From IMG/VR virus record IMGVR_UViG_3300027672_001796: DNA of 64,000 nt, one strand, 5' to 3'. The DNA comes from a virus (lineage: Duplodnaviria > Caudoviricetes). The first letter of the stretch is position 1; each line of letters begins with the position of its first letter. Both the position numbers and the translations under genes were made by a program. Shown here piece after piece: positions 12,458-40,333 of the stretch. A model generated the notes under the pieces. That model saw only the letters and a program-made list of their open reading frames with translations, made no database searches and was not told the origin of the DNA.

Positions 12458-15400
12458 CTAATATCCGCTGTTGTCTGTTGAGCTACTAGAGTTGCCCACA
12501 GAATTATTTAGGGTAATTGTATTACCCAATGTAGTGTTTGCTACACTTTGATCCAGTACATAAGTACCATGGTAGTATGTTACACTGTTAGGCATGTAAA
12601 ATACTTGCCCAAAGAATGTGTGCGTCATACTTGTTCCGTCACCTGCAAAGTTTGCCGCTTCAGCTGAAGCATATAACGGATAGTAACCATTAATAGCATA
12701 AGGACCCACAGAGCTGTCAACACCATTGTATGTTGTTAATAGTCCGCTACTAGTCTTGTTAGGCTTAATGTTACCATGTGTTAATTTGTCTACAACATCA
12801 ATTTCGTCAATGCCGGCTGTACTTAAAAATAGTTCGTCTGCATCTGCTTTAACTTGGAATAAGTCTCCAAAAACACCACTTGCTTTTGTAGGCACAATAA
12901 CAATACTGCCTATAGCATTTCCAACTTGCTGATGTATATAACTGCTTAGTTCTGTGAAGTAAAAAGTATCGCCGAAGTCCCAATTATCTACATTGAAATA
13001 TTGGTTAATTGCGCCAATAACTTTTGTTTTAATTTCGTTATCACTTAAACTTGTTCCAGGCAATCGAACAACTTTGAATTTTGCTTGTAGCTCATCAGTT
13101 GCATCATCGCCAAATATTAATTTAAATCTTCCACTCTTGAATACTAATTGGTCACTAGCAGATTTAAAGTCTTGTAAAATAGCAAATTCGTTTTCTAATT
13201 CTGAACTAGTAGGTGCTGTTGGGAAATCTGTTCCTGGCACTTTAATATAAGATTGCATGTCTTCCCAGTACGAAGAAGTAAGTACAAAGAATTCATGTAC
13301 GTTACTAACACTAGGATCGATTCGCATACTATTGTCTGCAACGTGAGTCCATTTAAATACTACACCGTTTTGTCTGAGTGACTTAGAATTCTGTGTAAAA
13401 CTTCTGCCTTTTTTAGCAAAGTGACTTGAACTTTCGTAGTTGCTAACACTTGCTAAGTTTGTGCTACTCTTAGTTAAAATAAATACCTTCCCAGTATCTT
13501 TAGAATAAATCTTTTTATTATGCATGCCACCAGTAGTTTCATTTTTACCTTGCTGGTTATTAAATAAATCAACAACAGTTTTGTTTCTAACTAAGTAGAA
13601 TTCGTAATCAGCAGTATTATACGGCACACCAGCGGCGCCTGTCACAGTTGATCTATCTCCAGCAAACGTTAGTGTTGTTTCTTTTCTTAAATCTAATATG
13701 CCTGTTTTAACTGGTCTAGTATAAGTGTAGCCATCAAAGTCTTCATAATTTTCAAATAATATAATGTCGTCTGCGCCAACAAAATGTTCAAACTGGATTG
13801 GATTATCTGGACTATCTGATGATGCTGTATTAACAGGAGTAACTTTAACCTTCTTAGGATCAGTATATCCGTCTGGGTAACTAAAGTTTCCTATAGCACT
13901 ATATACTATCGGAGCATCAAGTCTAGAGTTGTCGTTAACATACTTAACTGCAATAGTATCACTTCTGTTATTTCTAGCAGAGTTGTCTATAGCATAGTGA
14001 TGTCTTGCTTCAAAGTCAACTACAAGTGTTCCTGTCTGTGCCGCATAGTTACTAGTAGCTAATTGGAAAGAAGCGCCAGCTACTGTACATGAACCGCCTG
14101 CCGCCAGTGTTAAGTTCTGATTATTATATCTGTATGCAATGCCGCCTGTAGCATTTAAAATTGGTCCACCGAATGTGGTACCATCAAACGCTATAGTTAT
14201 TTTTGGCAACTTATAAATTACGCCAGTGTCTGCAACTACTACTACTTTGTCAGTAACAGTTGTTGATGCCGATGTGCCTAATTCAATTGATGTTGGTTGT
14301 ACAAAAGCCCCTATGGCTCCATTTTGATAAATTCCTAAGTTAGATATAACTGAAACTGCTATATCGTAATGCTTAACATTTCTGGAAATCAACGGTATAT
14401 TAGAAAAGTAAGATCCTGTAGTACCTAAATACCACTTGTCTCCAATTATTACACCGTCTTCGTCAACCCATGTAAATGATTCTGTGAAACTAGGCTTAAT
14501 GTTTAATGTTGGTAATTCAATTGAATCGTATTTTGCTAAACCTGTTGCGTTATCCTGTAACCTGTTTTCATTGACATTATAAAATCTAACATCGTCTAAA
14601 CTTTCGAACACAAATTGTGTTCCTCTAATTTCAATATCATATCTGTATGATAATGTATCTACATTAACATATTTAAATTTTAATATCCAACTTGCATCTA
14701 ATCCTGTTCCTGATGAATCTCCGGTATACGAAGCACTAAAGTCTTTAGCAGTACTTAAATTATTATTCTCTATAATATAGAATCTATTTTCGCTAGGCAT
14801 AAATCTTACGCCAAATGTTCTTCTAGAAGCCATTGCCGATTTTAATTGCTGTTCTTCTAATGCAAATAATGTTTTTCTTAAAATAACAATTACTTCATCA
14901 CATTTCCAACCATTTGTAATTTTCTTATTAAGTTTAACTGGGCCATTTGATGTACTACTAGCCGAGTTTCTAACACCGTTGTTATCCATACTAACAATCT
15001 TAGCCCATTCATATTTTGTTTTATCAGTGGGATCATAGAATTTTAACATATAGCCAGGCTGTATAATTTTAAACAGCGTATTAGCTACATTAACGTCAGT
15101 AGGTGTTCCACCAGCTGTATATGTCTCAGACATATACCCAAACACACCTGTAGCAATTCTTGGCAATGTATTCCATGTTATGCCGAATAATGAAATATCA
15201 AACATATCAGTATAAGCAGGAACTTCTTTAACTTTAGTTCTAAATGTGCTGTAAATAAAATCATTAAGTTTTAAGTTCTTAATAATAGTTGGAAACTTTG
15301 TGTTAATAAAATCTTGTGTAGTATTCGTAGTTGTTACTTTAAATGCATCACTAGAGTTACTAGGCTCTTCATACAATGCGCCATCTTCTGCGATACTAGT

Positions 15401-16831
15401 TGTGGTCTGGAAAGTACTAGTAGGATCTGTAATATCAATATATCTACTGTGTCCAGCATGTGTTTTGTTAGTAACTTTTAATTTTTTAATGTTTGTGCTT
15501 TTAGCTAAAGGAAGTACTTGGTAGTCTTGAGCTGTAACCATTCTGTCTTGAGCATAATATGCCTGTGGTGCTCTTTCCTTAATGCCAGCAAGTGTTTCTG
15601 CAGGTAAACTGTTTGATACCTTGCTTTCTAGTTTTGATGTAATTGTTAACTGATGCGATTTACCATCTCCTGTAAAGTATGGTATAGTTGTTACAACAGT
15701 TCTAACATCATCTGGCTGTAGTGCAAATCTTTCGTTGTCACTAACTCTGTACTGAGCTTTAAATGATCCCATAGGTACGTTTGCAAAGTTACCGTCTGCA
15801 AACTGTAGTCTAATACCACCTTGTCCTACATTTTGTACAGCATATAATAACGGAGTATTTTTAGCCTTAGTGTTATACATTAAAGTCTGTCCAACAGTGT
15901 TTGGAACTTTAACCCACTTAGTTAATACTTTATCATTACTATCTACTTCTGACAAATATACATCTGTTTCATTAATATTATCAACAGCAATTGCTTGTTG
16001 TCTGTTTTCAATTGGTGTAGTAAAATCGAAATTTGATGATCGCAATGTGCCTTGCTTAAACATCATAAAGAATCCAGTATTTTTACTTAATGATCCTAGT
16101 CCGTCATTTCTATGAAGTATTGAAAAGTTGTTTGTGCTGTCTGGATGCTTTTCTGCAAACACACCGGCATCTTCAAAATCAACATTCACAAATTCAAATG
16201 CTCTGTCAACTCCGTTAACATTTACATCAAAGCCGTATGTTTGCGATGCAGTGATTGGAGTGTTAATATCGTATCTGTCTGTTATGATTCCACCGACAGT
16301 TCCTGTTTTTACAGGCTTACTAAATCTGTTAACATTACCAAATGCACTATTCATTATAGTTAAAAATTGTTCGTAACTGTCTGGATTGTTTGCATCGTTC
16401 CAGCTAATAGTTTTATCGTTTATACTTGCACCCGAACTATCTGTTAACGCCTCTGAAGTTGACACGCTTACAATTTTCATTAATCCACTTGCAGGCATAT
16501 TTCGTTTTGGATTGTATCCAAGTTGTCTAGCAAGTTTAAATACCGAGTCTCTTCGCTCAGCAGTTTCTAAAAAGTTTTCTCTTGTATTAACATCCATTCT
16601 GAATGCAATACTTTGCCCGAGGTAGGCAAGCAATTCTATGATTGCTATGAATTCTGAACTTTCAATATAATCATTGAAGTTTTCTGGAAAATTAGATTTG
16701 ATATATTCGACCATTGCATTTCTAATAGTGTCAAAGTCGTATGCTTGAAAGTCTACTTGACTATATGCCTGATAGGCTACTGACCAATCTTCTGCCGCGA
16801 ATAAATTATTTTGTCTGCTATTAACTGCCAT
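12458..16831 (-). CDS. gp6: Baseplate wedge subunit, T4 gp6-like N-terminus, with long extensions
   Basis: N-terminal DFQAYDFDTIRNAMVEYIKSNFPENFNDYIESSEFIAIIELLAY...ENFLETAERRDSVFKLARQLGY and internal APQAYYAQDRMVTAQDY match gp6/baseplate-J motifs. Adjacent to gp25. Confidence 0.85.
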   Translation of the reverse strand: MAVNSRQNNLFAAEDWSVAYQAYSQVDFQAYDFDTIRNAMVEYIKSNFPENFNDYIESSEFIAIIELLAYLGQSIAFRMDVNTRENFLETAERRDSVFKLARQLGYNPKRNMPASGLMKIVSVSTSEALTDSSGASINDKTISWNDANNPDSYEQFLTIMNSAFGNVNRFSKPVKTGTVGGIITDRYDINTPITASQTYGFDVNVNGVDRAFEFVNVDFEDAGVFAEKHPDSTNNFSILHRNDGLGSLSKNTGFFMMFKQGTLRSSNFDFTTPIENRQQAIAVDNINETDVYLSEVDSNDKVLTKWVKVPNTVGQTLMYNTKAKNTPLLYAVQNVGQGGIRLQFADGNFANVPMGSFKAQYRVSDNERFALQPDDVRTVVTTIPYFTGDGKSHQLTITSKLESKVSNSLPAETLAGIKERAPQAYYAQDRMVTAQDYQVLPLAKSTNIKKLKVTNKTHAGHSRYIDITDPTSTFQTTTSIAEDGALYEEPSNSSDAFKVTTTNTTQDFINTKFPTIIKNLKLNDFIYSTFRTKVKEVPAYTDMFDISLFGITWNTLPRIATGVFGYMSETYTAGGTPTDVNVANTLFKIIQPGYMLKFYDPTDKTKYEWAKIVSMDNNGVRNSASSTSNGPVKLNKKITNGWKCDEVIVILRKTLFALEEQQLKSAMASRRTFGVRFMPSENRFYIIENNNLSTAKDFSASYTGDSSGTGLDASWILKFKYVNVDTLSYRYDIEIRGTQFVFESLDDVRFYNVNENRLQDNATGLAKYDSIELPTLNIKPSFTESFTWVDEDGVIIGDKWYLGTTGSYFSNIPLISRNVKHYDIAVSVISNLGIYQNGAIGAFVQPTSIELGTSASTTVTDKVVVVADTGVIYKLPKITIAFDGTTFGGPILNATGGIAYRYNNQNLTLAAGGSCTVAGASFQLATSNYAAQTGTLVVDFEARHHYAIDNSARNNRSDTIAVKYVNDNSRLDAPIVYSAIGNFSYPDGYTDPKKVKVTPVNTASSDSPDNPIQFEHFVGADDIILFENYEDFDGYTYTRPVKTGILDLRKETTLTFAGDRSTVTGAAGVPYNTADYEFYLVRNKTVVDLFNNQQGKNETTGGMHNKKIYSKDTGKVFILTKSSTNLASVSNYESSSHFAKKGRSFTQNSKSLRQNGVVFKWTHVADNSMRIDPSVSNVHEFFVLTSSYWEDMQSYIKVPGTDFPTAPTSSELENEFAILQDFKSASDQLVFKSGRFKLIFGDDATDELQAKFKVVRLPGTSLSDNEIKTKVIGAINQYFNVDNWDFGDTFYFTELSSYIHQQVGNAIGSIVIVPTKASGVFGDLFQVKADADELFLSTAGIDEIDVVDKLTHGNIKPNKTSSGLLTTYNGVDSSVGPYAINGYYPLYASAEAANFAGDGTSMTHTFFGQVFYMPNSVTYYHGTYVLDQSVANTTLGNTITLNNSVGNSSSSTDNSGY

Positions 16832-16832
16832 G

Positions 16833-17204
16833 TTATATCTCTACGTTTTCCCTAGCATACTCTACAAATAGTGTGTCTTCCGATAAAAACGGTTTAAACT
16901 TTAAGTGTAATGTTATGCGAATTGTGTGGTCTAATACATCAGTGAACATATCGGTCATTTCTACCCTGCTGTCCTTCGATACAATACGCTCTATATCTTC
17001 TTTGATTTCTGCAACAACGTATTGGTCTAGAGGGTTCATTATAATATCCCAAATTCTAGTACCATATGTAGGTCTCATTACTCGCTCACCTCTTTTGGTA
17101 TAAAGTTCGTTAAGTAAGTCAGCTTTTATAAGTTCACCATCAATTAGCGTATAAGGTGCCCTTACCTTGCCTGTTGTGCTGAATCCTCTGTATATATTTG
17201 CCAT
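16833..17204 (-). CDS. gp25: Baseplate wedge subunit gp25-like (GPW_gp25 family)
   Basis: 123 aa with IKADLLNELYTKRGERVMRPTYGTRIWDIIMNP...IERIVSKDSRV, the typical gp25 signature. Confidence 0.9.
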   Translation of the reverse strand: MANIYRGFSTTGKVRAPYTLIDGELIKADLLNELYTKRGERVMRPTYGTRIWDIIMNPLDQYVVAEIKEDIERIVSKDSRVEMTDMFTDVLDHTIRITLHLKFKPFLSEDTLFVEYARENVEI

Positions 17205-18233: not shown

Positions 18234-18438
18234 TAACCATAGCTTAAACGATACCTTAGAAGAAGAACTTCGTCTTATGCTTGTTGACAAGAACAACGAA
18301 TGTAATCAACTAAGAGCCGAAATTAAAACTTTAAGAAGATCAGTTGCTGAAGAACAAGAAGGCAAATATAGAGCCTATATCAAGTTTGCTGATTTACAAC
18401 AACAAATACATACAAATAAGAATAACGAAACAGCTTAA
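18226..18438 (+). CDS. Small coiled-coil hypothetical protein
   Basis: GTG start after AAGGGAG SD. Heptad-like LEEELRLMLVDKNNECNQLRAEIKTLRR. Confidence 0.65.
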   Translation: MNNNHSLNDTLEEELRLMLVDKNNECNQLRAEIKTLRRSVAEEQEGKYRAYIKFADLQQQIHTNKNNETA

Positions 18439-30638: not shown

Positions 30639-30956
30639 ATGATAGAGATACTACAAGAAGTAACTGACTGGGGCAAGTACTCTGTTAACAATGGGATTTA
30701 CCATGTTAATGGTGCTGGGCAACTAGTTGCATACAAGCCATCCGAAACTGCTGAACTTAAAACGTTTAAGAATCCGTTAAAGCAGTTTAGCAAAAGCAGA
30801 CGTAAGTTTGTTAAGTTAGGTGAGGCAGACGAGCAATTAGCAGATGATGTTGTTGTTGTTCAAGGCAGTAACGGTAAGACTTACACGATACAGGACGGTA
30901 AATGTAGTTGTCCTGGCTACACATATAGGGGAAATTGTAAACATGTTAACAAATAA
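30639..30956 (+). CDS. SWIM zinc-finger protein
   Basis: C-terminal CSCPGYTYRGNCKH (CxC-x(n)-CxH). Confidence 0.8.
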   Translation: MIEILQEVTDWGKYSVNNGIYHVNGAGQLVAYKPSETAELKTFKNPLKQFSKSRRKFVKLGEADEQLADDVVVVQGSNGKTYTIQDGKCSCPGYTYRGNCKHVNK

Positions 30957-30972
30957 AAAGGGGAATACGCAA

Positions 30973-33327
30973 ATGATTAATTTCTGTGCAATACTTTTAT
31001 CATTAGGCTTAGGTGCATGTGCAAGTGGCGGCGGCAGTACAACTGCACCCACCCCAACTGTAGTAACACCTCCAACAACGGTTACTACATCACCTGACAA
31101 GCGAATACAGTTTGAGACTTTTTCAGATAACTTTGAAAATACTAATAGTGCGTTAGGTTATAACAATGTGTCTTATGGTGTAGGCGATTATAATGATACA
31201 ACTTGGGTTAACGGCAAATACACTGTTGAAGACTTTGCATTTTTGCAAGTTACTATTAATGGTAGTCACGGCGGCAAAGACTTAAACAATCCAGACTCAG
31301 ACGAATATACAGGTCCAGGTGCTTGGATGACCAATGCAAGTTATGTTATAGAAAATGATATCAACCAAGATGGACATAACGACTTTGTTGTGTGGGTACA
31401 AACATTCGGTGACCGAAATACGATACCTGGCACACGAGCATTACAATTTATTAATGACGGCGAAGGACACTTTGCATTAGATTGTAGTGTGTTTGATAAC
31501 GGAGTATGTCCGTTAGTGTATGGACAAGATTCGACTATGACTAACATGGGTTGGTATAACGGAGAAGATGCGCCTGTACAAGAATACAACATGGGTATTG
31601 CACACCAATACGATTTAAACGGCGACGGTAATAAAGACTTGTTTAACACAGGTAACTTGTGGTTAACTGATAATGGCAAATTTATAAAGTCGCATGATAA
31701 CTTGCCAGACTTTATGCTTTCAAACAAAAATAAAGATGGGGTCGAAGTTGGATTGATGGTTCATGACCATGCTGTAGGTGATTTAAATGGAGACGGCTTT
31801 AATGACATCTTTATGCCTAACACAATACCCGTTGCTGATATGGGTACGAACGGTGGGAACGGATACAAGTTCTTTATGCTAAATGACGGATCAGGTAACT
31901 TTAAAGACACTAGGTTCAAAGTAGGTCATGATACTCACTTTGCGACATCTACAACAATAGCAGATTTTGATGGTGACGGTTTTGGAGATATTGCACTAGG
32001 CTGGAGTCAAGGCGCCTATGTTTCCTTAGGTGGAGATAGTGTAGGTGGCATTTATTGGGGCAACACTGAATCAGATTACACAACAGACTACACCGCATTA
32101 CCTCCTGGGTATTATGAATATAATATTGCATTCGATATGCAGGCAACGGATGTTAATGCAGACGGCTTACTAGACTTAGTTATAGCAAACACAGACGGCG
32201 AAAATTATTATCAAGGGCATGTGTTACAGTTCTTAACTAACAACGGCGACAGAACATTTGACCATGCGGCATTTAGGGCCGAAGAGTTAATAGAAGGAAT
32301 TAACAACGGCGTGAACCACATTTATATACTAGACTTCAATCATGATGGCATTGACGATATACTAGTTACTTCACAAGACCGAGCGTATGCTATGATTAAC
32401 AATGGCGATGGCACTTACACAGAAACTAGCCAGTTTGCTGTACCAGATAATAATCCTGTATTTAATATGTTATTCCCTGTTGAAGTAGATGGCAAATATG
32501 ATTACGACTTTATTGGTGCAAATATTATGCAACCATCAGACACACAAACAATTACTAGTTTCTTTATTAGTTTAGATCCACCGTCGCAGTTACAAGAAAT
32601 GAGATCAGAACTACTTAATAAGCCATTGCAGTACGCACAGACTATTGCTGATAATAAAACATTGTTCCATAATATTAAAAATGCAACACTTAGCGACAAT
32701 GTGTTTATGGCAAGAAATAGTGTTACAGGTATTCAAGGTTACTCGCACAATTTTGATAACATAGGTGTTACAGTAGGCAACACATCTAACGGTGCATTAG
32801 TATACTTGGACAAGCAAACAGGACAATTCCATTACGGTTTAGGTTATATGACAGACAAGATCGGTGCTAACAGTAACGGCAAATGGTATGGCAACGGTAC
32901 TGCTGAATTAGATGTTTCTACACTAAATGCATTTGCAGAATATACTACTCCTATACTACCTAACCTACATGTTACAACGGGCCTAGCAATGTATAAGACG
33001 TCAGTACAAGGCTTTACAGAAGAAAACAGTCAGTACAACATCACAGTAAAAGACTTTACTTTAAACGATGCAGAATTATATGTAGATGTAACAGGTATGC
33101 ACACATCAGTGTACGGAAATACATACTTAACATTAGGTACTAGTATGCACCAGAGCTTGAGTAATACAAGCATTGTGTGGGACGGTGGATTGGTATCTGA
33201 ATTTAGTAACAATGATGTTGCATTTAGGACTACACTAATGCACACATATAAAATGTTCTATGCTAAAGCAACTACTAGTTCAGTTGATGGCGACACATTA
33301 GAAATAGGATTTAACTTACAGTTTTAA
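30973..33327 (+). CDS. Lipoprotein with FG-GAP/VCBS repeats and a putative C-terminal outer-membrane beta-barrel
   Basis: Likely start MINFCAILLSLGLGAC (lipobox) after a GGGG SD; the ORF-track start at 30844 overlaps the SWIM gene. Six DxNxDGxxD-type repeats (DINQDGHND, DLNGDGNKD, DLNGDGFND, DFDGDGFGD, DVNADGLLD, DFNHDGIDD). Ends IGFNLQF. Confidence 0.7.
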   Translation: MINFCAILLSLGLGACASGGGSTTAPTPTVVTPPTTVTTSPDKRIQFETFSDNFENTNSALGYNNVSYGVGDYNDTTWVNGKYTVEDFAFLQVTINGSHGGKDLNNPDSDEYTGPGAWMTNASYVIENDINQDGHNDFVVWVQTFGDRNTIPGTRALQFINDGEGHFALDCSVFDNGVCPLVYGQDSTMTNMGWYNGEDAPVQEYNMGIAHQYDLNGDGNKDLFNTGNLWLTDNGKFIKSHDNLPDFMLSNKNKDGVEVGLMVHDHAVGDLNGDGFNDIFMPNTIPVADMGTNGGNGYKFFMLNDGSGNFKDTRFKVGHDTHFATSTTIADFDGDGFGDIALGWSQGAYVSLGGDSVGGIYWGNTESDYTTDYTALPPGYYEYNIAFDMQATDVNADGLLDLVIANTDGENYYQGHVLQFLTNNGDRTFDHAAFRAEELIEGINNGVNHIYILDFNHDGIDDILVTSQDRAYAMINNGDGTYTETSQFAVPDNNPVFNMLFPVEVDGKYDYDFIGANIMQPSDTQTITSFFISLDPPSQLQEMRSELLNKPLQYAQTIADNKTLFHNIKNATLSDNVFMARNSVTGIQGYSHNFDNIGVTVGNTSNGALVYLDKQTGQFHYGLGYMTDKIGANSNGKWYGNGTAELDVSTLNAFAEYTTPILPNLHVTTGLAMYKTSVQGFTEENSQYNITVKDFTLNDAELYVDVTGMHTSVYGNTYLTLGTSMHQSLSNTSIVWDGGLVSEFSNNDVAFRTTLMHTYKMFYAKATTSSVDGDTLEIGFNLQF

Positions 33328-33569
33328 TCCATCCAGTCTTGACTCTTGTCACCGCTCTTCATTTTGTTGTAGCGGTTTAAGGTCTTTATAAGTTCTTCAC
33401 GCTCAGATGGACTCAGGTGCCAACCCTCAGTATACGAAACGGCACCCTCACTAAAAATAGCCAGCTCGGCTACTTGTTTAGAAATTGCTTGACCTTCTTT
33501 CTCGAGTTTACCTAAGTAGGCTGAAATTTCTTCAGGCTCGGCTGACCCTAGGAACCCGTGAAAAAATTT
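33324..33569 (-). CDS. Start-less -1-frame extension of the gp26-like gene (gp51-like position), predicted programmed frameshift product
   Basis: 78 open codons (HGFLGSAEPEEISAYLGKLEKEGQAISKQVAELAIFSEGAVSYTEGWHLSPSEREELIKTLNRYNKMKSGDKSQDWMD) with no usable upstream start. Entered through the slippery A AAT TTT TTC at 33569-33560. Confidence 0.65.
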   Translation of the reverse strand, partial: KFFHGFLGSAEPEEISAYLGKLEKEGQAISKQVAELAIFSEGAVSYTEGWHLSPSEREELIKTLNRYNKMKSGDKSQDWMD

Positions 33570-34426
33570 ACAGGATCAAAGTTAATAGTAGAATTAAATG
33601 TGTTATCACATTCTTCATTGCTACATTCAACTTGCACCTCGTTATTAACACCCTTAGCATTAATGCTATTGATAAATGCTTCAATTTCTTTTCCAACGTT
33701 GTTATCAGTATTCTCTAAAAACTCTCTAATAACTTTTTTGTCTTTAATAACAGCATCTTCGCCCTTCTCATCTTGAAAACTAACACTATAAATAGCATCA
33801 ATCAATAACTCGAAGTTTAAGTCTGCTAGTTTAACAAAACTAGTATTAAATGCTTTTAGCCTTTCCATGTCGTCGTCTAATGCAGAAATACTTTGCATAC
33901 TTCTTGTACTTTGGAAACTGGCAACACCTGCCTTAATAGTGTTCTTATAACTAAATGGCATACCTGAAATAACAAGTCCGTTTGCAAGAGTAACTTCGTA
34001 GACATCGTCTAGTTCTTCCATTGTCTGCAAACTTTGTGCAACACTTACAGTTACGTCAGTAGTAGTTTCGCACTTTGGACACTTAGCGGCAACATCAACA
34101 TCATCACCACCACTTGCACCTCTAATTGCAATTAGTAATGCATCTACGTCAGCACTATATAAATCTCTTGCATTTTTAATTTCTGGTACACATGAATGGA
34201 TCAATGAAGCAACTGCCTCACCGTTTAATAAAGCATCTGGATTTTTTAATAACAACTCATCTTTAGTAGTCATTGGATAAATTGCTAATTCTTGGGTACT
34301 ATCATCATTGAATACGACAATACCTTCGTCATAAAATTTACCACCACTAGGGATTTTTGTGAATATCTTTGGTGCTCTGAAGTAGGCACTTAACGGATTC
34401 TGCGTTTTGTTCATATTTTTGCTCAT
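33548..34426 (-). CDS. gp26: Baseplate hub assembly chaperone, T4 gp26-like
   Basis: NPLSAYFRAPKIFTKIPSGG...PMTTKDELLLKNPDALLNG...DVDALLIAIR...CPKC...C-x4-C...FDPVNFF. Divergent from the tape measure gene. Confidence 0.75.
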   Translation of the reverse strand: MSKNMNKTQNPLSAYFRAPKIFTKIPSGGKFYDEGIVVFNDDSTQELAIYPMTTKDELLLKNPDALLNGEAVASLIHSCVPEIKNARDLYSADVDALLIAIRGASGGDDVDVAAKCPKCETTTDVTVSVAQSLQTMEELDDVYEVTLANGLVISGMPFSYKNTIKAGVASFQSTRSMQSISALDDDMERLKAFNTSFVKLADLNFELLIDAIYSVSFQDEKGEDAVIKDKKVIREFLENTDNNVGKEIEAFINSINAKGVNNEVQVECSNEECDNTFNSTINFDPVNFFTGS

Positions 34427-34538: not shown

Positions 34539-37500
34539 GTGGCAGTTGAATTTAACATAGAAGGACAGAATTTTCGTTTCCCAGATTGGGCAACAGAATC
34601 CACCATGGAAGAAGTATCCAAAGTACTTCAAGAGATTGCAAAAAATAACGGTGTGTCAGACAAAGACCTTAAAGCACTAGTAGAGAACAATAAGAAGATG
34701 CATTTAGCAATAACTAACAATGCAAAAGACGAAAAAAGTTCTGACAAAGCTAGACAGGAAGAGGCTAAAGAAGCCGGCGGGTTCTTACAAGAAATGATTA
34801 GGGGCATCAAAGGTAACGAAGATGCTATCAGAGACGGCAATAAAGTAGACAAAAAGGAATATAAATCCTTTGCTACTAAAGTTATAGACGACTTTGAAAA
34901 CACAGGCGAACAACTTGTCGGAGCAGTAGGCTTTGTTGGCGGAGGCGTATTTAAAGCAGGTATGCTACTTGGCGGCGCGGCAGTAACAGGCGCAGGCTTT
35001 ATTAGTAAAGCAATGATGGGCGCCGGCAGTGCAATTAACGACCTTACTTCAGTTGGTATTGGGTTTAACAGTACTTACACTGATATGGGTAAAACTACTA
35101 CCCAAGCAATTGGACAACTGGGTGCATTGGGCGACGGTTTTGCAGGTGCGGCACAGAGAATGGCAAATTCTTCTAGTGTAATAGCAACTCAGGGCTTTGG
35201 TAGATTTACTGACACAATGAAATTTGCGGCAGACACGTCAGAGGAACTTGGTTTAAGTTTCCAGGACAGCATGGATCGTTTTGGACAAGCATTAGATAGA
35301 CGACAAGCAATGTTAAACTTGGGTAATGTTGACCAGGGAAGATTAAACCAACAAGTAGCAAGAACAACAAGATTACAACAAGCATACTCAACAGCAATTG
35401 GTGTGAGTACAGCAGAATTACAAAACTTTGTAAGTCAGCTATTAGACGAAGGTCAATTAACAGCAACACTTCTGCAATTTAACGATGCAGTACGAAGTGA
35501 TGTTATTGGCGGCATAGAAGTATTTGCTTCTGGCATGGCGGCTATGGGCGGAAAAGCAGGAGCCGATCTTGCAACAGCATTCCAGGAAGCGGCGAATACA
35601 AGTGCTATTGGAATGAGCCAAGCGGCTATTGGTATGGTAACAGCATTACCTAATCTTCAAGGCCCGATGAACGAATATATAACAGCAGTACAAAACGGCA
35701 CATTAAGCCAAGACCAAGCACAAGGAATGGTAGAAGGTCTAACGTCGACACTAGGCAATCTTAGCCACAGTGAAAAACAACGTATCAGAGCAATGGCTAA
35801 CATTGGCGACGAATCAGCAAAAACTATGGCAAACGCTATAGCACAGTTTGAACAGTCCGAAAGCAAAATGAAAGATATTAATAAATCATTAGGCACAGGC
35901 TTTCAAATGGACTTAGTACAAAAGGGTACTAACCAATTTAATAAAGTAATGGCACAGATATCAGGCGGAGCCCAGAATGCATTCTACAGTTTATTCTCAG
36001 ATCCAGAAGTAACAGGAGCAATATCAGACGGCTTCAAAGAAATACTAGACATCTTTGGCTTTGGCGTAGACGATATGAGTGGAGCCGCAATGAGTATGGG
36101 CGACAGAGTAGGCAAAATGGCGACAACTTTAGCTAAATGGATTAAAGTAGCGGCAGATCAATTAGCAGACTTTGCCCAATATATCAAAACAGCTTTCGAT
36201 AAAGACGGCTTCGCTGGAGTGATTCAGACACTGTTAGGAGACATAGGCTCAGCAATAACTTCTGGCCTATTAAAGTTGCTAGCCGCGGCAGTTCCTGTGA
36301 TAATTGCATTGTCGACGGCGAAAGCCCTTGCAGTTCAGGCAGTTACCGGAAAAGTACAAGCCGGAGTTGGTGGAGCACTTGCAGACACGATAAAGAATAG
36401 AGTATCAAGTAGCGGTGCCACATCAGTTGGAAGCGGCTTGGAAGCGGCAGGCAGTAAAGCCACTGATATCACCGAATCAGCATTATCCGGAGGCGGCAAA
36501 ACAGGCGGCTTCCTACAAAGAATAGCAGATGGCGTTAAGAAATTTGGCGACACTAAAGTACTTAAAGGCGCGGCGGCAATTGCATTATTAGGTGCATCAG
36601 TTGGATTAGCGGCTGTAGGACTTAAACAGTTCAATGATGTAGAGTGGACTTCAATTGTAAAAGGCACAATTGCACTAGGCGGATTGGCGGCACTAGCCAC
36701 GGTGCTAGGTAAAGCATCAGGATCGATGCTCACAGGAGCGGCGGCGATAGCACTATTAGGATTATCAATTCTTCCATTAGGCAAAGGACTCCAATTAATG
36801 AAAGATGTTGGTCTTAAAACAATTGGCGTGTTGGCGGCAGGACTTGTAGTATTAGGTATAGCGGCGGCAGGACTTAGTTTTATATCACCATTTATTATAA
36901 CAGGCGCAATAGCCATTGGAGCATTGGGTCTTGCATTAATACCATTAGGTCTTGCTATGCAGTTAATTAATGAGCCTCTTAAAAACTTCGGCCCTAGCTT
37001 ATCAGCACTGGCAGACGTTGACGGTGGTGGACTAATGAATACAGCAGGCGGATTATTGGCAGTAGGAGCCGCTATGACGCTAATGGCCCCTATGTTACCA
37101 TTTATGCTTATTGGCTCTATGGCAGGACCTGTTATGGAGAGACTAGCAGATTCATTATATGCATTTAACCGTGTGGATATGAAAAACTTGAGTATGGCTG
37201 GCGGCGCAATGAAGTCACTTGGTGGCGGCATGAGTGCTATGAGCGGCGGTACATTAATGAGCGGTATCAAAGACGGCATCGGAGCATTGTTTGGAGCAGA
37301 CAGTCCTATAGAAAAAATGAAAAAGTTTATCGACGGACTTGCTGGCATTAGTGTAAAGCCGTTATTAATTATAGCTAAAGGGTTTGTATTATTACAACAG
37401 GCAATAATAAAACTACCTGTAACATTACTTAACACAATGGCACGAATGAATGAAATGAGCGACATGTTCCTACTGTTAGCAGAAGAATCTAGATTCATAA

Positions 37501-38576
37501 TGATATTTGGAAGTAACATAACTAAGTTCGCTGTTAATATGAAACATGTTGGAGACTCGTTTGAGAAAATGGGCGACGACCCATTTGTTATATTCGACAA
37601 TTTAGAAAGCCAATCTAAACACATGGGAATGTTTGCCACAAGTACAGCACAACTTAATGAAGCATTAGGTAATTTCGACGGAGCCGGTATTGGTCAAGGG
37701 TTCTACATAATGGGCGATGGCATAGCCTATCTAGCACAGCAAATAGCCGATATAAACTTCGCAGATTTATTAAAAATAGCGGCATTAGGATTAATAGGCG
37801 GTAGTAGTTCAGCAGGAGCCAAGCAAGTAAACACAGACATGTCAAACGTTCCTACTAGTAAAGCAGGACAGAAAGCACTACAAAAAACTAGTGCGCCATT
37901 AGTAGAAAAAGGTATAACTAAAACACCAACAGTTATCGAAGATCTCTTGAGCGAAGATGACTGGGGTATTGCTAGTACATCGTTAAAAGAGTTAACAGAA
38001 AGACTACAAACAGCCACAGCCGCCCTCGAAAAAGGCCCCGACATTGATTCGATGGATTATATGGATGACGAACAAAGGCTTAAGAACGATGTGATGTGGG
38101 CAAAGATGGACATTAGAAGTAAGAAAGATCAGATGGCTGGCGGAACTGGCAGTTTTGCAGAGACAACAACAACGGGCATAGGAAGACCAGAAGCTTTGCC
38201 AATTGGTGAGACTTCGGACTATGATGATGAAGACATCTTCGACTCTGTGCCGATACCTACGGCAATAGATAGGTCACCGGCTGGCAGAGCCAAACGAAGA
38301 AGAGAACAGTTAGAGAAGAGAAAGGGTGGCGACTTAACTGGATTTAATGGCAACACTGGAACAGATGTTGACACAGCCGCACAATTCCCAGAAACTAAAA
38401 AGCAAAAAGATACCAAGCCCAAAGTAGATACTACTATGGACGACTTCAATTCAAAACCAACCTCAACAACCCCAACTCCTAACGAAGATAGGATAGGCGA
38501 ACTAATATCATTACAGACCGAAAATAACAAGCTATTAAAGGCTCAAATCAAAGCTACTAAAGTTCTAAACGACTAA
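34539..38576 (+). CDS. Tail tape measure protein
   Basis: 1345 aa, Ala/Gly/Leu-rich amphipathic helical repeats with hydrophobic central segments. GTG start with AAGGA SD. Lies next to the hub chaperone and portal genes. Confidence 0.75.
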   Translation: MAVEFNIEGQNFRFPDWATESTMEEVSKVLQEIAKNNGVSDKDLKALVENNKKMHLAITNNAKDEKSSDKARQEEAKEAGGFLQEMIRGIKGNEDAIRDGNKVDKKEYKSFATKVIDDFENTGEQLVGAVGFVGGGVFKAGMLLGGAAVTGAGFISKAMMGAGSAINDLTSVGIGFNSTYTDMGKTTTQAIGQLGALGDGFAGAAQRMANSSSVIATQGFGRFTDTMKFAADTSEELGLSFQDSMDRFGQALDRRQAMLNLGNVDQGRLNQQVARTTRLQQAYSTAIGVSTAELQNFVSQLLDEGQLTATLLQFNDAVRSDVIGGIEVFASGMAAMGGKAGADLATAFQEAANTSAIGMSQAAIGMVTALPNLQGPMNEYITAVQNGTLSQDQAQGMVEGLTSTLGNLSHSEKQRIRAMANIGDESAKTMANAIAQFEQSESKMKDINKSLGTGFQMDLVQKGTNQFNKVMAQISGGAQNAFYSLFSDPEVTGAISDGFKEILDIFGFGVDDMSGAAMSMGDRVGKMATTLAKWIKVAADQLADFAQYIKTAFDKDGFAGVIQTLLGDIGSAITSGLLKLLAAAVPVIIALSTAKALAVQAVTGKVQAGVGGALADTIKNRVSSSGATSVGSGLEAAGSKATDITESALSGGGKTGGFLQRIADGVKKFGDTKVLKGAAAIALLGASVGLAAVGLKQFNDVEWTSIVKGTIALGGLAALATVLGKASGSMLTGAAAIALLGLSILPLGKGLQLMKDVGLKTIGVLAAGLVVLGIAAAGLSFISPFIITGAIAIGALGLALIPLGLAMQLINEPLKNFGPSLSALADVDGGGLMNTAGGLLAVGAAMTLMAPMLPFMLIGSMAGPVMERLADSLYAFNRVDMKNLSMAGGAMKSLGGGMSAMSGGTLMSGIKDGIGALFGADSPIEKMKKFIDGLAGISVKPLLIIAKGFVLLQQAIIKLPVTLLNTMARMNEMSDMFLLLAEESRFIMIFGSNITKFAVNMKHVGDSFEKMGDDPFVIFDNLESQSKHMGMFATSTAQLNEALGNFDGAGIGQGFYIMGDGIAYLAQQIADINFADLLKIAALGLIGGSSSAGAKQVNTDMSNVPTSKAGQKALQKTSAPLVEKGITKTPTVIEDLLSEDDWGIASTSLKELTERLQTATAALEKGPDIDSMDYMDDEQRLKNDVMWAKMDIRSKKDQMAGGTGSFAETTTTGIGRPEALPIGETSDYDDEDIFDSVPIPTAIDRSPAGRAKRRREQLEKRKGGDLTGFNGNTGTDVDTAAQFPETKKQKDTKPKVDTTMDDFNSKPTSTTPTPNEDRIGELISLQTENNKLLKAQIKATKVLND

Positions 38577-38638: not shown

Positions 38639-40333
38639 ATGGCAACTTGGCGAAAATATTTTAATGCAACATCATCAAACGGAGGAATGCCTTCGAACAT
38701 TGATGGGCAGTCAGCTGGACAATTTGGTGCGGCTCGGTTTAGCAGTTGGTTACCTGAAGTATATGCAGGCAGTCCTAACAGACTTATGCGTTATATTCAG
38801 TATGACCAAATGGACAACGACTTGGAGATCAATGCGGCACTAGATATTATTGCAGAATTTTGCTCACAAGATGACGAGTACACTAAACTACCATTCATAT
38901 TCGAGTTTACAGAAGATCCTAGCGAAACAGAAATGAAAATTCTTAGCAAAACACTTGATCAATGGTGTAACAACAACGAGCTAAGAAGACGAGCTTTTAA
39001 AATGGTAAGGAACACTCTTAAATACGGAGACCAGTTCTTTATTAGAGATCCAGAAACTTATAAACTATTTTGGGTTGACCCAGCAAACATTGAAAAGGTT
39101 GTTGTTAACGAAAGTGAAGGTAAGAAGATTGAAACTTACTTTATTAAAAACTTAGACGTTAACTTTGAACAAATGTCGGCAACAAGTGCCGCGGCATTAC
39201 ATGCCAGACCATATGGCGCAGGTGGCGGCATGATGGCAGGCGGCAATGTTGGAACTAGTGTTAGTAACTATTCGCCTATGGGCGGAGACCAAGGTGCTAC
39301 AACAGGTAGTCCAGTTGATGCACAGCATGTAGTACATATTAGTTTAACAGAAGGCATGGATCATTCATGGCCCTTTGGCATTAGCGTATTAGAGCCAGTA
39401 TTTAAAGTTTTTAAACAAAAAGAATTATTAGAAGATAGTATTATTATTTACAGAGTTCATAGAGCACCTGAAAGAAGAGTGTTTATGATTGACGTTGGTA
39501 ATATGCCTCCTCATAAAGCACAACAGTACTTAGAACGTGTTAAGTATGAAGTACAGCAAAAACGTGTACCTAACAAAAACAAAGACGGCAACAATGTTGC
39601 AGATGCGGCTTACAATCCAATGAGTATGTTAGAAGATTACTTCTTTGCTCAAACGGCAGACGGTCGTGGTAGTAAAGTTGATACATTGCCTGGCGGTGAG
39701 AACTTAGGTCAAATTGACGACTTAAAATACTTTAACAACAAACTGCTAAGAGGATTGAGAGTACCAAGTTCATATTTGCCTACTGGCCCAGATGATGGAA
39801 CAGCGGCAACAACTGACGGTAAAGTAGGCGTTGCATACATACAAGAATTTCAATTTGCTAAGTTTTGTCAAAGACTACAAAAGCAAATTATACGAACATT
39901 AGATAGAGAATTTAAAATGTTCTTAAACTATAAAGGCATTGAGCTTGATTCAAGTACATTTAAATTAGAATTAACAGTACCTCAAAACTTCAGTTCATAC
40001 AGAGACTTGGACATGAACCTTCAAAGAGCACAGCTATTCGGCAGTTTAGAAGCAGTACCGTATTTAAGTCAGCAATTTAAACTTAAGAAGTACTTAGGCT
40101 TAACGCAAGAAGAGATGAAGGATAACGAGCATTATTGGAAGATGGAGAATAAATACAATACAGACGGCGCAGAAGATGTAGGCTTACGAAATGTAGGCGT
40201 TAGACCTGGCCCAAGTGCTCCGTTAGACATAATGGCACCGGTAGAAGACATACCAGCACCAATGGATGATGTAATGAGTCCAGATGTTAGCGGAATGGAA
40301 CCTGGTTCAGAAATACCAGATGGAAACTTATAA
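38639..40333 (+). CDS. gp20: Portal protein, T4 gp20-like
   Basis: LEDSIIIYRVHRAPERRVFMIDVGNMPPHKAQQYLE, SMLEDYFF, GRGSKVDTLPGGENLGQIDDLKYF, LRVPSSYL. Confidence 0.95.
   Translation: MATWRKYFNATSSNGGMPSNIDGQSAGQFGAARFSSWLPEVYAGSPNRLMRYIQYDQMDNDLEINAALDIIAEFCSQDDEYTKLPFIFEFTEDPSETEMKILSKTLDQWCNNNELRRRAFKMVRNTLKYGDQFFIRDPETYKLFWVDPANIEKVVVNESEGKKIETYFIKNLDVNFEQMSATSAAALHARPYGAGGGMMAGGNVGTSVSNYSPMGGDQGATTGSPVDAQHVVHISLTEGMDHSWPFGISVLEPVFKVFKQKELLEDSIIIYRVHRAPERRVFMIDVGNMPPHKAQQYLERVKYEVQQKRVPNKNKDGNNVADAAYNPMSMLEDYFFAQTADGRGSKVDTLPGGENLGQIDDLKYFNNKLLRGLRVPSSYLPTGPDDGTAATTDGKVGVAYIQEFQFAKFCQRLQKQIIRTLDREFKMFLNYKGIELDSSTFKLELTVPQNFSSYRDLDMNLQRAQLFGSLEAVPYLSQQFKLKKYLGLTQEEMKDNEHYWKMENKYNTDGAEDVGLRNVGVRPGPSAPLDIMAPVEDIPAPMDDVMSPDVSGMEPGSEIPDGNL

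What the first reader, a model, noticed from the sequence alone, without database searches (positions are those of the whole stretch)
33324..34426. Predicted -1 frameshift fusing the gp26-like chaperone to a start-less gp51-like ORF, next to the tape measure gene
Seen in sequence: the gp26-like gene ends GTA AAT TTT TTC ACG GGT TCC TAG, which contains two overlapping X XXY YYZ heptamers (A AAT TTT and T TTT TTC, 33569-33560). The -1 frame has a TGA two codons before the site, has no start codon until its last residues, and runs 78 protein-like codons to a TAA at 33324. A CTGAA-GAAAT-TTCAG hairpin lies downstream. Established knowledge: siphophage and many myophage tail assembly chaperones (lambda G/GT) use such a shift beside the tape measure gene, and T4 gp26 and gp51 are separate hub-assembly proteins. 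Inference: in this lineage gp26/gp51 behave as a G/GT pair (292 aa and about 367 aa), which would link T4-type hub chaperones to the G/GT paradigm.
Basis: partly seen in the sequence, partly recalled or inferred. Interest (0 to 1): 0.7.

Follow-up and report, generated by a model that had tools for sequence, protein, structure and literature searches.

The report
Frameshifted gp26/gp51 tail chaperone gene
A T4-related marine jumbo phage very probably makes a short (gp26-like) and a long (gp51-like) tail/hub assembly chaperone from one gene by slipping back one base on a run of T's; the signal is real and widely conserved, but the idea that gp26/gp51 are the T4-type G/GT-like chaperone pair was already published in 2022.

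Summary
The 292-aa PF12322 (T4 gp26/gp51 family) gene at 33548-34426 (-) ends in A AAT TTT TTC. The -1 frame then runs 78 start-less codons to a TAA at 33324.

The same layout holds in 91 of 91 related loci, covering marine metagenomic phages, RaK2, PA5oct, 121Q, GAP32, BF, XacN1, RsoM2USA, Atu_ph07, Phosso and SCTP-2. It also holds in cyanophages S-PM2, P-SSM2 and Syn9, and in KVP40 and Aeh1. The extension is under purifying selection and has no conserved start.

In another clade the extension is fused in frame to a PF12322 domain, always beside a short paralog. T4 gp51 is itself PF12322 plus a C-terminal tail. That tail is clearly homologous to the cyanophage -1 ORF and weakly to this one. 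So short form = gp26 and long form = gp51.

The open point is the mechanism: ribosomal -1 frameshift or transcriptional slippage. Five diverged lineages with only T5, which keep A AAT TTT and an intact extension, favour the ribosomal route. The downstream hairpin is weak, too distant and not conserved.

The parts
33548..34426 (-). 0-frame gene: gp26-like hub/tail assembly chaperone, short form (TAC-N equivalent), 292 aa. AGGAG Shine-Dalgarno at 34436-34432, 5 nt before the ATG.
   Evidence: PF12322 E 1.3e-19 over residues 22-289; phrog_150 'baseplate hub' E 6e-24. 649 homologs, with the C-terminal FDPVNFFTxS invariant in the aligned set.
33560..33569 (-). Tandem slippery heptamers A AAT TTT (33569-33563) and T TTT TTC (33566-33560), in 0-frame phase over codons Asn287-Phe288-Phe289.
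   Evidence: Read directly. At least one in-phase heptamer in 91/91 related loci and in S-PM2, P-SSM2, Syn9, KVP40 and Aeh1. By gene-wide codon use xxT TTT TTC is expected at 0.12 but is seen in 68/76 unique genes.
33324..33560 (-). -1 frame extension: 78 codons plus TAA, with no start codon before codon 66. It is the C-terminal tail of the long form (gp51-tail equivalent).
   Evidence: tblastn finds it in the same place in Atu_ph07 (E 2e-8) and SCTP-2 (E 1e-6). 71 unique homologous extensions. dN/dS 0.43 in this frame against 0.86 and 1.28 in the other two; codon-position entropy 1.28/0.98/1.65. Profile search gives 636 hits, including at least 17 natural in-frame fusions.
33324..34426 (-). 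Predicted trans-frame long product (289 + 78 = 367 aa), the gp51 / TAC-NC equivalent.
   Evidence: It aligns end to end with natural in-frame PF12322+tail proteins. AlphaFold2 model of the joined product (one X at the break, 368 residues): pLDDT 91.2, pTM 0.88; tail helices at 299-326, 333-337 and 341-358.
33521..33535 (-).
   Evidence: The spacer to the heptamer is 24 nt. No consensus structure in 39 or in 25 sequences. 52.6% of cells are paired, against 54.9% when slid by +1. Window fold z-score +0.7.
34539..38576 (+). Divergently transcribed 1345-aa ORF, a putative tape measure protein, followed by the gp20-like portal gene (38639-40333).
   Evidence: phrog_4372 'tail length tape measure' E 4.6e-5 over part of the protein. 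The portal is PF07230 E 1e-107. The same synteny holds in RaK2, GAP32, 121Q, BF, PA5oct and contig L117.

Best explanation
The gene encodes the T4-superfamily hub/tail assembly chaperone in two forms.

- Most ribosomes terminate at TAG (33550-33548) and make the 292-aa gp26-like short form.
- A minority slip back one base on A AAT TTT TTC (33569-33560). The tRNA-Asn/tRNA-Phe pair or the tRNA-Phe/tRNA-Phe pair re-pairs in the -1 frame.
- Those ribosomes continue for 78 codons and give a 367-aa long form with the junction ..VNFF|HGFL..

The long form is the counterpart of T4 gp51 (PF12322 domain plus C-terminal tail). The short form is the counterpart of T4 gp26. By analogy with lambda G/GT, the shared N-domain would act on the tape measure/hub and the tail would add a second contact.

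What is shown: the signal, the conserved start-less ORF, its selection as protein, natural fusions, and gp51 being PF12322 plus a tail.

What is inferred: that the shift happens on the ribosome, its efficiency, and the binding partners.
For: 1. Signal and ORF. An in-phase X XXY YYZ heptamer within 6-36 nt of the stop and an open -1 frame occur in 91/91 loci. These span identities to P0001 down to 26%. The same holds in 5/5 cyanophage, KVP40 and Aeh1 genomes.
2. No independent start. The first start codon in the -1 ORF wanders from codon 1 to codon 97. PA5oct has none, and Aeh1 has no gene 51 annotated.
3. Protein-level selection on the extension.
4. Natural fusions. At least 17 representative proteins of 319-351 aa carry PF12322 plus the extension in frame. 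Their junction ..F-R-x-K-L-I.. matches the predicted product.
5. Both forms seem to be needed. In 4/4 such contigs a short PF12322 paralog sits directly upstream. T4 has two PF12322 genes, 26 and 51, while nine complete genomes with the slippery site have only one PF12322 match.
6. Homology of the tail to gp51.
7. Ribosomal rather than transcriptional. Seven contigs (5 unique, 39-79% identical in the extension) have TTT TCC, a run of only T5. They keep A AAT TTT, the change is synonymous in the -1 frame and Phe to Ser in the 0 frame, and the extension stays intact with mostly third-position changes. In the listed marine-clade tails the Val codon before Asn is always GTA, which is what completes A AAT TTT.
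8. The long form folds as one confident model.
Against: - There is no direct evidence of the product: no mass spectrometry and no ribosome profiling.
- There is no conserved downstream stimulatory structure or upstream Shine-Dalgarno-like element.
[quoted passage not shown] I could not read it.
- The Phe-Phe motif is conserved as protein even in T4 gp26 (TTC TTT). Part of the heptamer's conservation is therefore a protein constraint.
- RNA-library contigs show T6 without an indel, but contigs cannot show minority slipped transcripts.
Confidence: 0.62

Rival explanations
1. The same two products arise by transcriptional slippage. RNA polymerase adds one extra U in the U6 run, so a minority of mRNAs encode the long form in frame. 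The protein products would be identical to those of a ribosomal shift.
For: The conserved element is a homopolymer: T6 in most loci, T7 in XacN1 and T9 in RsoM2USA. No stimulatory RNA structure is conserved. The title of Vladimirov et al. 2022 proposes a non-translational-frameshift mechanism for T4-like tail assembly chaperone genes. The citing Adele paper speaks of poly-T signals.
Against: Five diverged lineages keep a functional-looking extension with only T5 after A3, where the in-phase heptamer A AAT TTT survives. The base after the run is C in nearly all loci, although TTT would lengthen the run and is the preferred Phe codon (72%). The T run is always in heptamer phase. T6 is short for slippage by multisubunit RNA polymerases (my own knowledge). 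RNA-library contigs from two studies carry T6 (weak, because contigs show the majority form only).
Confidence: 0.22
2. The downstream ORF is an independent small gene (the small 'gp51' of cyanophage and KVP40 annotations), translated by its own initiation or by termination-reinitiation and acting in trans. No fusion protein is made.
For: Several genomes annotate it as a separate gene: S-PM2p208, KVP40.0327, 121Q_595, GAP32_242, BF gp247, XacN1 ORF316 and Phosso 319. Some of these have an ATG within the first 1-4 codons.
Against: In the window there is no start before codon 66 of 78. PA5oct has none at all, and Aeh1 and Syn9 have none near the 5' end. The position of the first start is not conserved. 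The -1 frame is open back through the heptamer in every locus. Residues right at the junction are conserved as part of the product (FF followed by H/R-x-x-L-L) and match the natural in-frame fusions and gp51.
Confidence: 0.05
3. Artefact: a homopolymer miscall. The true gene would be a single in-frame ORF, or the extension would be decaying non-coding sequence.
For: Homopolymer runs are error-prone. In-frame fusions do exist in another clade.
Against: An identical T6 stands in 80 independent metagenome contigs, in 15 cultured phage genomes and in RNA-library contigs. The in-frame fusions have no T run at the junction. The extension is under purifying selection.
Confidence: 0.01

Closest known systems
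T4 gp26 / gp51 hub assembly chaperones, identified as the tail assembly chaperone pair of T4-like phages (Vladimirov, Gautam & Davidson, Virology 2022; 566:9-15; not readable here)
   Same: The N-terminal family is the same (PF12322), and both need a short form plus a long form with a C-terminal tail. The tail shares the motifs F-[RK]-x-L-L-x-x-P-[ED]-E-[IV] and S-x-x-E-x-x-x-M-x-P-x-E-R. The genes lie near the tape measure and hub genes.
   Different: T4 uses two separate, divergently transcribed genes. Its gp26 Phe-Phe motif is coded TTC TTT, which is not slippery. Here one gene with a recoding site makes both forms. The tail here is about 78 aa against about 48 aa in gp51, with an extra helix.
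gp26 plus the small 'gp51' ORF of T4-like cyanophages and KVP40 (Sullivan et al. 2010, PMC3037559; KVP40.0327 note)
   Same: The layout is the same: xxT TTT TTC near the stop of gp26 and a -1 ORF homologous to the gp51 C-terminus.
   Different: Those ORFs are annotated as independent genes and are 56-63 codons long. The window's extension is longer, more diverged (hhalign E 1e-3 to them) and start-less. The window's clade also carries a second, overlapping heptamer, A AAT TTT.
Lambda G/GT and P2 E/E+E' tail assembly chaperones (Levin 1993; Xu, Hendrix & Duda 2004; Christie 2002; cited from my own knowledge and from reference lists)
   Same: Two proteins share an N-terminus through a -1 shift at a heptamer near the end of the first ORF. 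The downstream ORF is start-less. The gene lies next to the tape measure gene. P2 uses a T-run heptamer.
   Different: No sequence or fold similarity to solved chaperones was found here. The gene is transcribed divergently from the putative tape measure gene rather than sitting between the tube and tape measure genes.
Tandem short + long PF12322 paralogs in uncultured T4-like phages (contigs L092, L115, L117, L118)
   Same: The domains, the junction sequence and the synteny with the portal and the large divergent ORF are the same.
   Different: The long form is an ordinary in-frame gene. The short form is a separate upstream gene. No recoding is needed.

Membership tests
Pfam PF12322 T4_baseplate (gp26/gp51 family) | Match to the family HMM above the gathering score over most of its length | tested here: met
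   71.2 bits against a cut-off of 24.5; residues 22-289 on profile positions 5-218 of 219. T4 gp26 and gp51 both match the full length.
Pfam PF12322 T4_baseplate (gp26/gp51 family) | Conserved C-terminal aromatic Phe-Phe motif that ends the domain, and paired Cys motifs | tested here: met
   FDPVNFF is invariant in A1. C116, C119 and C268 are invariant. T4 gp26 ends EFFELL.
gp51-type long form (PF12322 + C-terminal tail, PF28602 in precomputed Pfam) | C-terminal tail homologous to that of T4 gp51, directly after the PF12322 domain | tested here: inconclusive
   Direct hhalign of extension profile A2 against the gp51 tail: E 3e-4, probability 36-38%. Natural fusions against full-length gp51: E 4.7e-5, probability 68%, aligned end to end. 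Cyanophage -1 ORFs against the gp51 tail: probability 95.5%, but A2 against the cyanophage ORFs only 22%. Position, phase and motifs agree. The PF28602 model is not in the local Pfam copy.
G/GT-type frameshifted tail assembly chaperone (Xu, Hendrix & Duda 2004) | Conserved in-phase slippery heptamer near the 3' end, and a start-less -1 ORF that extends the protein | tested here: met
   91/91 loci, plus 5/5 cyanophage, KVP40 and Aeh1 genomes.
G/GT-type frameshifted tail assembly chaperone (Xu, Hendrix & Duda 2004) | Position immediately upstream of, and co-oriented with, the tape measure gene | tested here: not met
   The gene is adjacent to a putative tape measure ORF (weak hit) but transcribed divergently. 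The same holds in RaK2-like phages.
G/GT-type frameshifted tail assembly chaperone (Xu, Hendrix & Duda 2004) | Sequence or fold similarity to known tail assembly chaperone families | tested here: inconclusive
   No Pfam or PHROG chaperone hit. No meaningful PDB match by Foldseek or VIA-align. The published assignment could not be read.
G/GT-type frameshifted tail assembly chaperone (Xu, Hendrix & Duda 2004) | Experimentally shown trans-frame protein, and binding to the tape measure and tube proteins | not testable with these tools
   Needs mass spectrometry, reporter assays and pull-downs.

The most novel reading that the evidence does not exclude
The shift is a true ribosomal -1 frameshift that needs no stimulatory RNA structure, and it is the ancestral state of the whole T4 superfamily: cyanophages, KVP40, Aeh1, RaK2/PA5oct/XacN1/Atu_ph07-type jumbo phages and this marine clade.

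On this reading the separate gene 51 of T-even phages and the tandem short/long paralogs are derived replacements by duplication and fusion. Lineages that keep only A AAT TTT with a T5 run would then contradict the published suggestion of a non-translational mechanism. The 'missing gp51' of Aeh1 would also be explained.
Probability: 0.45. Interest if true: 0.55.

Novelty: new member of a known kind. Interest (0 to 1): 0.4.

Why it matters
The finding affects annotation. In dozens of cultured jumbo phages and cyanophages, and in hundreds of metagenomic phages, the 'hypothetical' or small 'gp51' ORF after the gp26-like gene should be joined to that gene as a recoded long form. Phages said to lack gp51, such as Aeh1, do have it.

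It also shows three interchangeable evolutionary solutions to one requirement, a short and a long chaperone form:
- recoding;
- tandem paralogs;
- dispersed paralogs, as with genes 26 and 51 in T4.

This is a clean natural experiment on why tail assembly chaperones need two forms. The T5 variants give a handle on the unsettled question of ribosomal versus transcriptional slippage. The general concept itself is already in the literature.

Tried and rejected
- Near and distant DNA search of the phage collection with the locus found no match.
- Pfam and PHROGs on the extension alone found nothing.
- RNAalifold on 39 and on 25 sequences downstream of the site predicted no pairs.
- A 12-bp outer helix taken from the window's own fold is 71% paired, but its covariation is no better than shuffles.
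- Fold searches of the long-form model gave no informative match:
  - AlphaFold DB Swiss-Prot gave nothing.
  - PDB by Foldseek gave nothing.
  - VIA-align wide gave only generic helical hairpins with Z below 8.
- The first MAFFT alignment for folding misplaced most short extension peptides. It was rebuilt without them.
- Homology of the extension to T4 gp25, whose ATG overlaps the gene 26 stop in the -1 frame, was considered. The extension has no GPW_gp25 hit while gp25 has one, so this was rejected.
- The search of earlier findings returned nothing.
- Vladimirov et al. 2022 is not held in the library.
- RNA runs were available only as contigs. They cannot show minority U7 transcripts, transcript ends or expression level.
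- No complex prediction was run. No tube protein is in the window, and binding is not claimed from data here.
Full report
**What is in the window**

On the minus strand, 33548..34426 encodes a 292-aa protein (P0001). An AGGAG sits 5 nt before its ATG. The protein matches Pfam PF12322 'T4_baseplate' (E 1.3e-19, residues 22-289) and PHROG 150 'baseplate hub'.

The gene ends GTA AAT TTT TTC ACG GGT TCC TAG. This puts two overlapping X XXY YYZ heptamers in the 0-frame phase: A AAT TTT at 33569-33563 and T TTT TTC at 33566-33560. In the -1 frame a TGA lies at 33578-33576. The frame then stays open through the heptamers for 78 codons after the site, to TAA at 33326-33324. The first ATG, GTG or TTG in that frame is codon 66 of 78.

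The surrounding genes mark a fragment of a T4-superfamily jumbo phage. They include:
- a gp55-like late sigma factor and gp46/47-like nuclease subunits;
- a gp20 portal, a gp21 protease and a gp23 major capsid protein;
- gp5-like and gp25-like baseplate proteins.

The record is an 81.5-kb IMG/VR contig, estimated 23% complete. The gene is flanked on one side by a divergent 1345-aa ORF with a weak tape-measure hit. On the other side lies a convergent 827-aa FG-GAP protein whose stop overlaps the extension's stop.

**Is it more than chance?**

A tblastn search with the extension alone found it in Agrobacterium phage Atu_ph07 (E 2e-8) and Salicola phage SCTP-2 (E 1e-6). In both it overlaps the 3' end of the gp26-like gene in the -1 frame behind T TTT TTC.

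I then fetched two further sets of loci:
- 80 loci from IMG/VR;
- the loci of PA5oct, GAP32, RaK2, 121Q, XacN1, RsoM2USA, Phosso and BF.

In 91 of 91 loci an in-phase heptamer lies 6-36 nt before the stop:
- T TTT TTC in 82;
- only A AAT TTT in 7;
- T TTT TTT in 2.

In all of them the -1 frame runs on for 179-293 nt, whereas the +1 frame usually closes within 16 nt.

The 71 distinct extension peptides align well (A2). Several measures show that they evolve as protein:
- dN/dS is 0.43 in this frame, against 0.86 and 1.28 in the other two frames.
- The third codon position is the most variable and the second the least.

The first potential start codon falls anywhere from codon 1 to codon 97 or is absent, so there is no conserved independent initiation.

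Given the amino acids and the genes' own codon usage, xxT TTT TTC would be expected about 12% of the time. It is seen in 68 of 76 unique genes, across lineages whose synonymous sites are otherwise saturated.

The T run is not an assembly error. It recurs in independent assemblies, and RNA-library contigs of two studies bridge it without an indel.

**What the extension is**

A profile search of 1.8 billion representative proteins gave 636 hits. Most are short ORFs. At least 17 representatives are 319-351-aa proteins in which a PF12322 domain is fused in frame to the extension. Their junction..F-R-x-K-L-I.., aligns residue for residue with the predicted trans-frame junction ..F-F-H-G-F-L...

In all four contigs examined, this long gene is directly preceded by a short PF12322 paralog of 276-329 aa. 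The portal and a large divergent ORF lie in the same positions as in the window. Those phages therefore encode a short and a long form as two genes.

T4 does the same. Both gp26 (208 aa) and gp51 (249 aa) match PF12322 over its full length, and gp51 carries about 48 extra C-terminal residues. Precomputed Pfam lists this tail as PF28602.

Profile-profile comparison links the extension to that tail:
- E 3e-4, probability 36-38%, for the extension profile against the gp51 tail;
- full-length fusions against full-length gp51 align end to end, E 4.7e-5.

Shared motifs are F-[RK]-x-L-L-x-x-P-[ED]-E-[IV] and S-x-x-E-x-x-x-M-x-P-x-E-R. This is moderate evidence on its own. It is reinforced by the T4-like phages that have a single PF12322 gene.

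**Distribution**

A six-frame search for PF12322 gave the following:
- two matches in T4;
- exactly one match in each of PA5oct, RaK2, Atu_ph07, XacN1, S-PM2, P-SSM2, Syn9, KVP40 and Aeh1.

In the last five, the gp26 gene ends xxT TTT TTC xxx STOP. A -1 ORF of 56-63 codons follows, and it is clearly homologous to the gp51 tail (hhalign probability 95.5%, E 1.4e-8).

The literature already noted part of this. Cyanophage and KVP40 'gp51' are only about 20% of the length of T4 gp51 and match its C-terminus, and Aeh1 'lacks' gp51 (Sullivan et al. 2010, PMC3037559; KVP40.0327 note). Read through the shift, all of these phages, Aeh1 included, encode a full gp51 equivalent.

**Prior art**

The PRFect paper (PMC10274946) and the phage Adele paper (PMC12846349) both cite Vladimirov, Gautam & Davidson, Virology 2022;566:9-15. 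[quoted passage not shown]

According to the citing texts:
- some T4-like phages carry one short gene and one longer fusion gene instead of frameshifting;
- poly-T sequences at the end of the TAC-N genes of T4-like phages are regarded as -1 signals.

I could not read the paper itself. No other paper found in five searches mentions a shift in gp26/gp51.

The window adds a new clade. Possibly the RaK2-type jumbo phages, the tandem heptamer and the T5 variants are also new.

**Mechanism**

Both a ribosomal -1 shift and insertion of one U by RNA polymerase would give the same protein.

No stimulatory element is conserved:
- RNAalifold predicts nothing.
- The window's downstream 70 nt fold no better than shuffles.
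- The two helices I tested do not covary beyond controls.

Three observations favour the ribosome.
1. Seven contigs (five distinct sequences, 39-79% identical in the extension) carry AAT TTT TCC. That leaves a run of only T5 but keeps the heptamer A AAT TTT. The change is synonymous in the -1 frame and Phe to Ser in the 0 frame. The extensions remain intact, with mostly third-position substitutions.
2. In the listed marine-clade tails the Val codon before Asn is always GTA, the codon that completes A AAT TTT.
3. The base after the run is almost always C, although TTT is the preferred Phe codon and would lengthen the run.

I put ribosomal frameshifting at about 0.6, transcriptional slippage at about 0.2, and together about 0.85-0.9 that the long form is made by recoding.

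**Structure and function**

The joined long form was modelled with one X at the break, so it numbers 368 residues. It gives a confident single model (pLDDT 91.2, pTM 0.88). The extension forms helices at 299-326, 333-337 and 341-358.

BFVD returns many 'baseplate hub assembly protein, T4-like' models. No solved structure or canonical chaperone fold was matched, so membership in the structural families of lambda-type chaperones is untested.

The functional reading is inference from T4 genetics and from the G/GT analogy. T4 genetics lists gp26 and gp51 as hub assembly chaperones (PMC3004832). On the analogy, the N-domain acts on the tape measure/hub and the tail adds a second contact. None of this was shown here.

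**Verdict**

This is a real, strongly conserved recoding signal. Because the concept was published in 2022, this is a new member of a known kind, and interest is moderate. The mechanism question and the annotation consequences remain worth pursuing.

Noticed in passing
L110 / L114 (Aeromonas phage Aeh1, NC_005260 about 118830-119010): Aeh1 is reported to lack gp51 and has no gene annotated after gp26. Yet a start-less -1 ORF of about 57 codons, homologous to the gp51 tail, follows GAT TTT TTC GAC TGA.
   Followed up: partly
L003 3803 (T4 genes 26/25 junction): In T4 the ATG of gene 25 overlaps the TAA of gene 26 (TAATG), so gene 25 lies in the -1 frame of gene 26. The Phe-Phe motif of gp26 is coded TTC TTT, which is not slippery. 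gp25 is unrelated to the extension.
   Followed up: yes
L115 1005-1040 and L118 2754-2789: In two of the four tandem-paralog contigs the short paralog still ends with an in-phase AAT TTT TTA heptamer, although a separate in-frame long gene follows. This may be a relic of the recoding site.
   Followed up: no
window 33324-33327: The stop of the convergent 827-aa FG-GAP repeat gene (30844-33327, +) and the stop of the -1 extension (33326-33324, -) overlap in the palindrome TTAA. No intergenic space or terminator lies between the two convergent genes.
   Followed up: no
window 30639-30956: A 105-aa ORF with a weak SWIM zinc-finger hit overlaps the 5' end of the FG-GAP gene by about 110 nt. One of the two start assignments is probably wrong.
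   Followed up: no
window 3-12449 (-) and 12458-16831 (-): There are two giant ORFs, one of more than 4149 aa (open at the window edge) and one of 1457 aa. They lie next to the gp25-like (16833-17204) and gp5-like (18435-19979) baseplate genes and are presumably fibre or baseplate giants. They were not analysed.
   Followed up: no
NCBI contig of GCA_015689235.1 listed with L117: The T4-type portal gene next to the tandem PF12322 paralogs carries an intein (PF14890 between two PF07230 segments).
   Followed up: no
L001 3027-3052 (Atu_ph07): A perfect 9-bp hairpin (TAGAACCGG / CCGGTTCTA) spans the E-P-E-E-I codons 18 nt after the heptamer. It is much stronger than in the window, but it is not conserved across the family.
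   Followed up: partly
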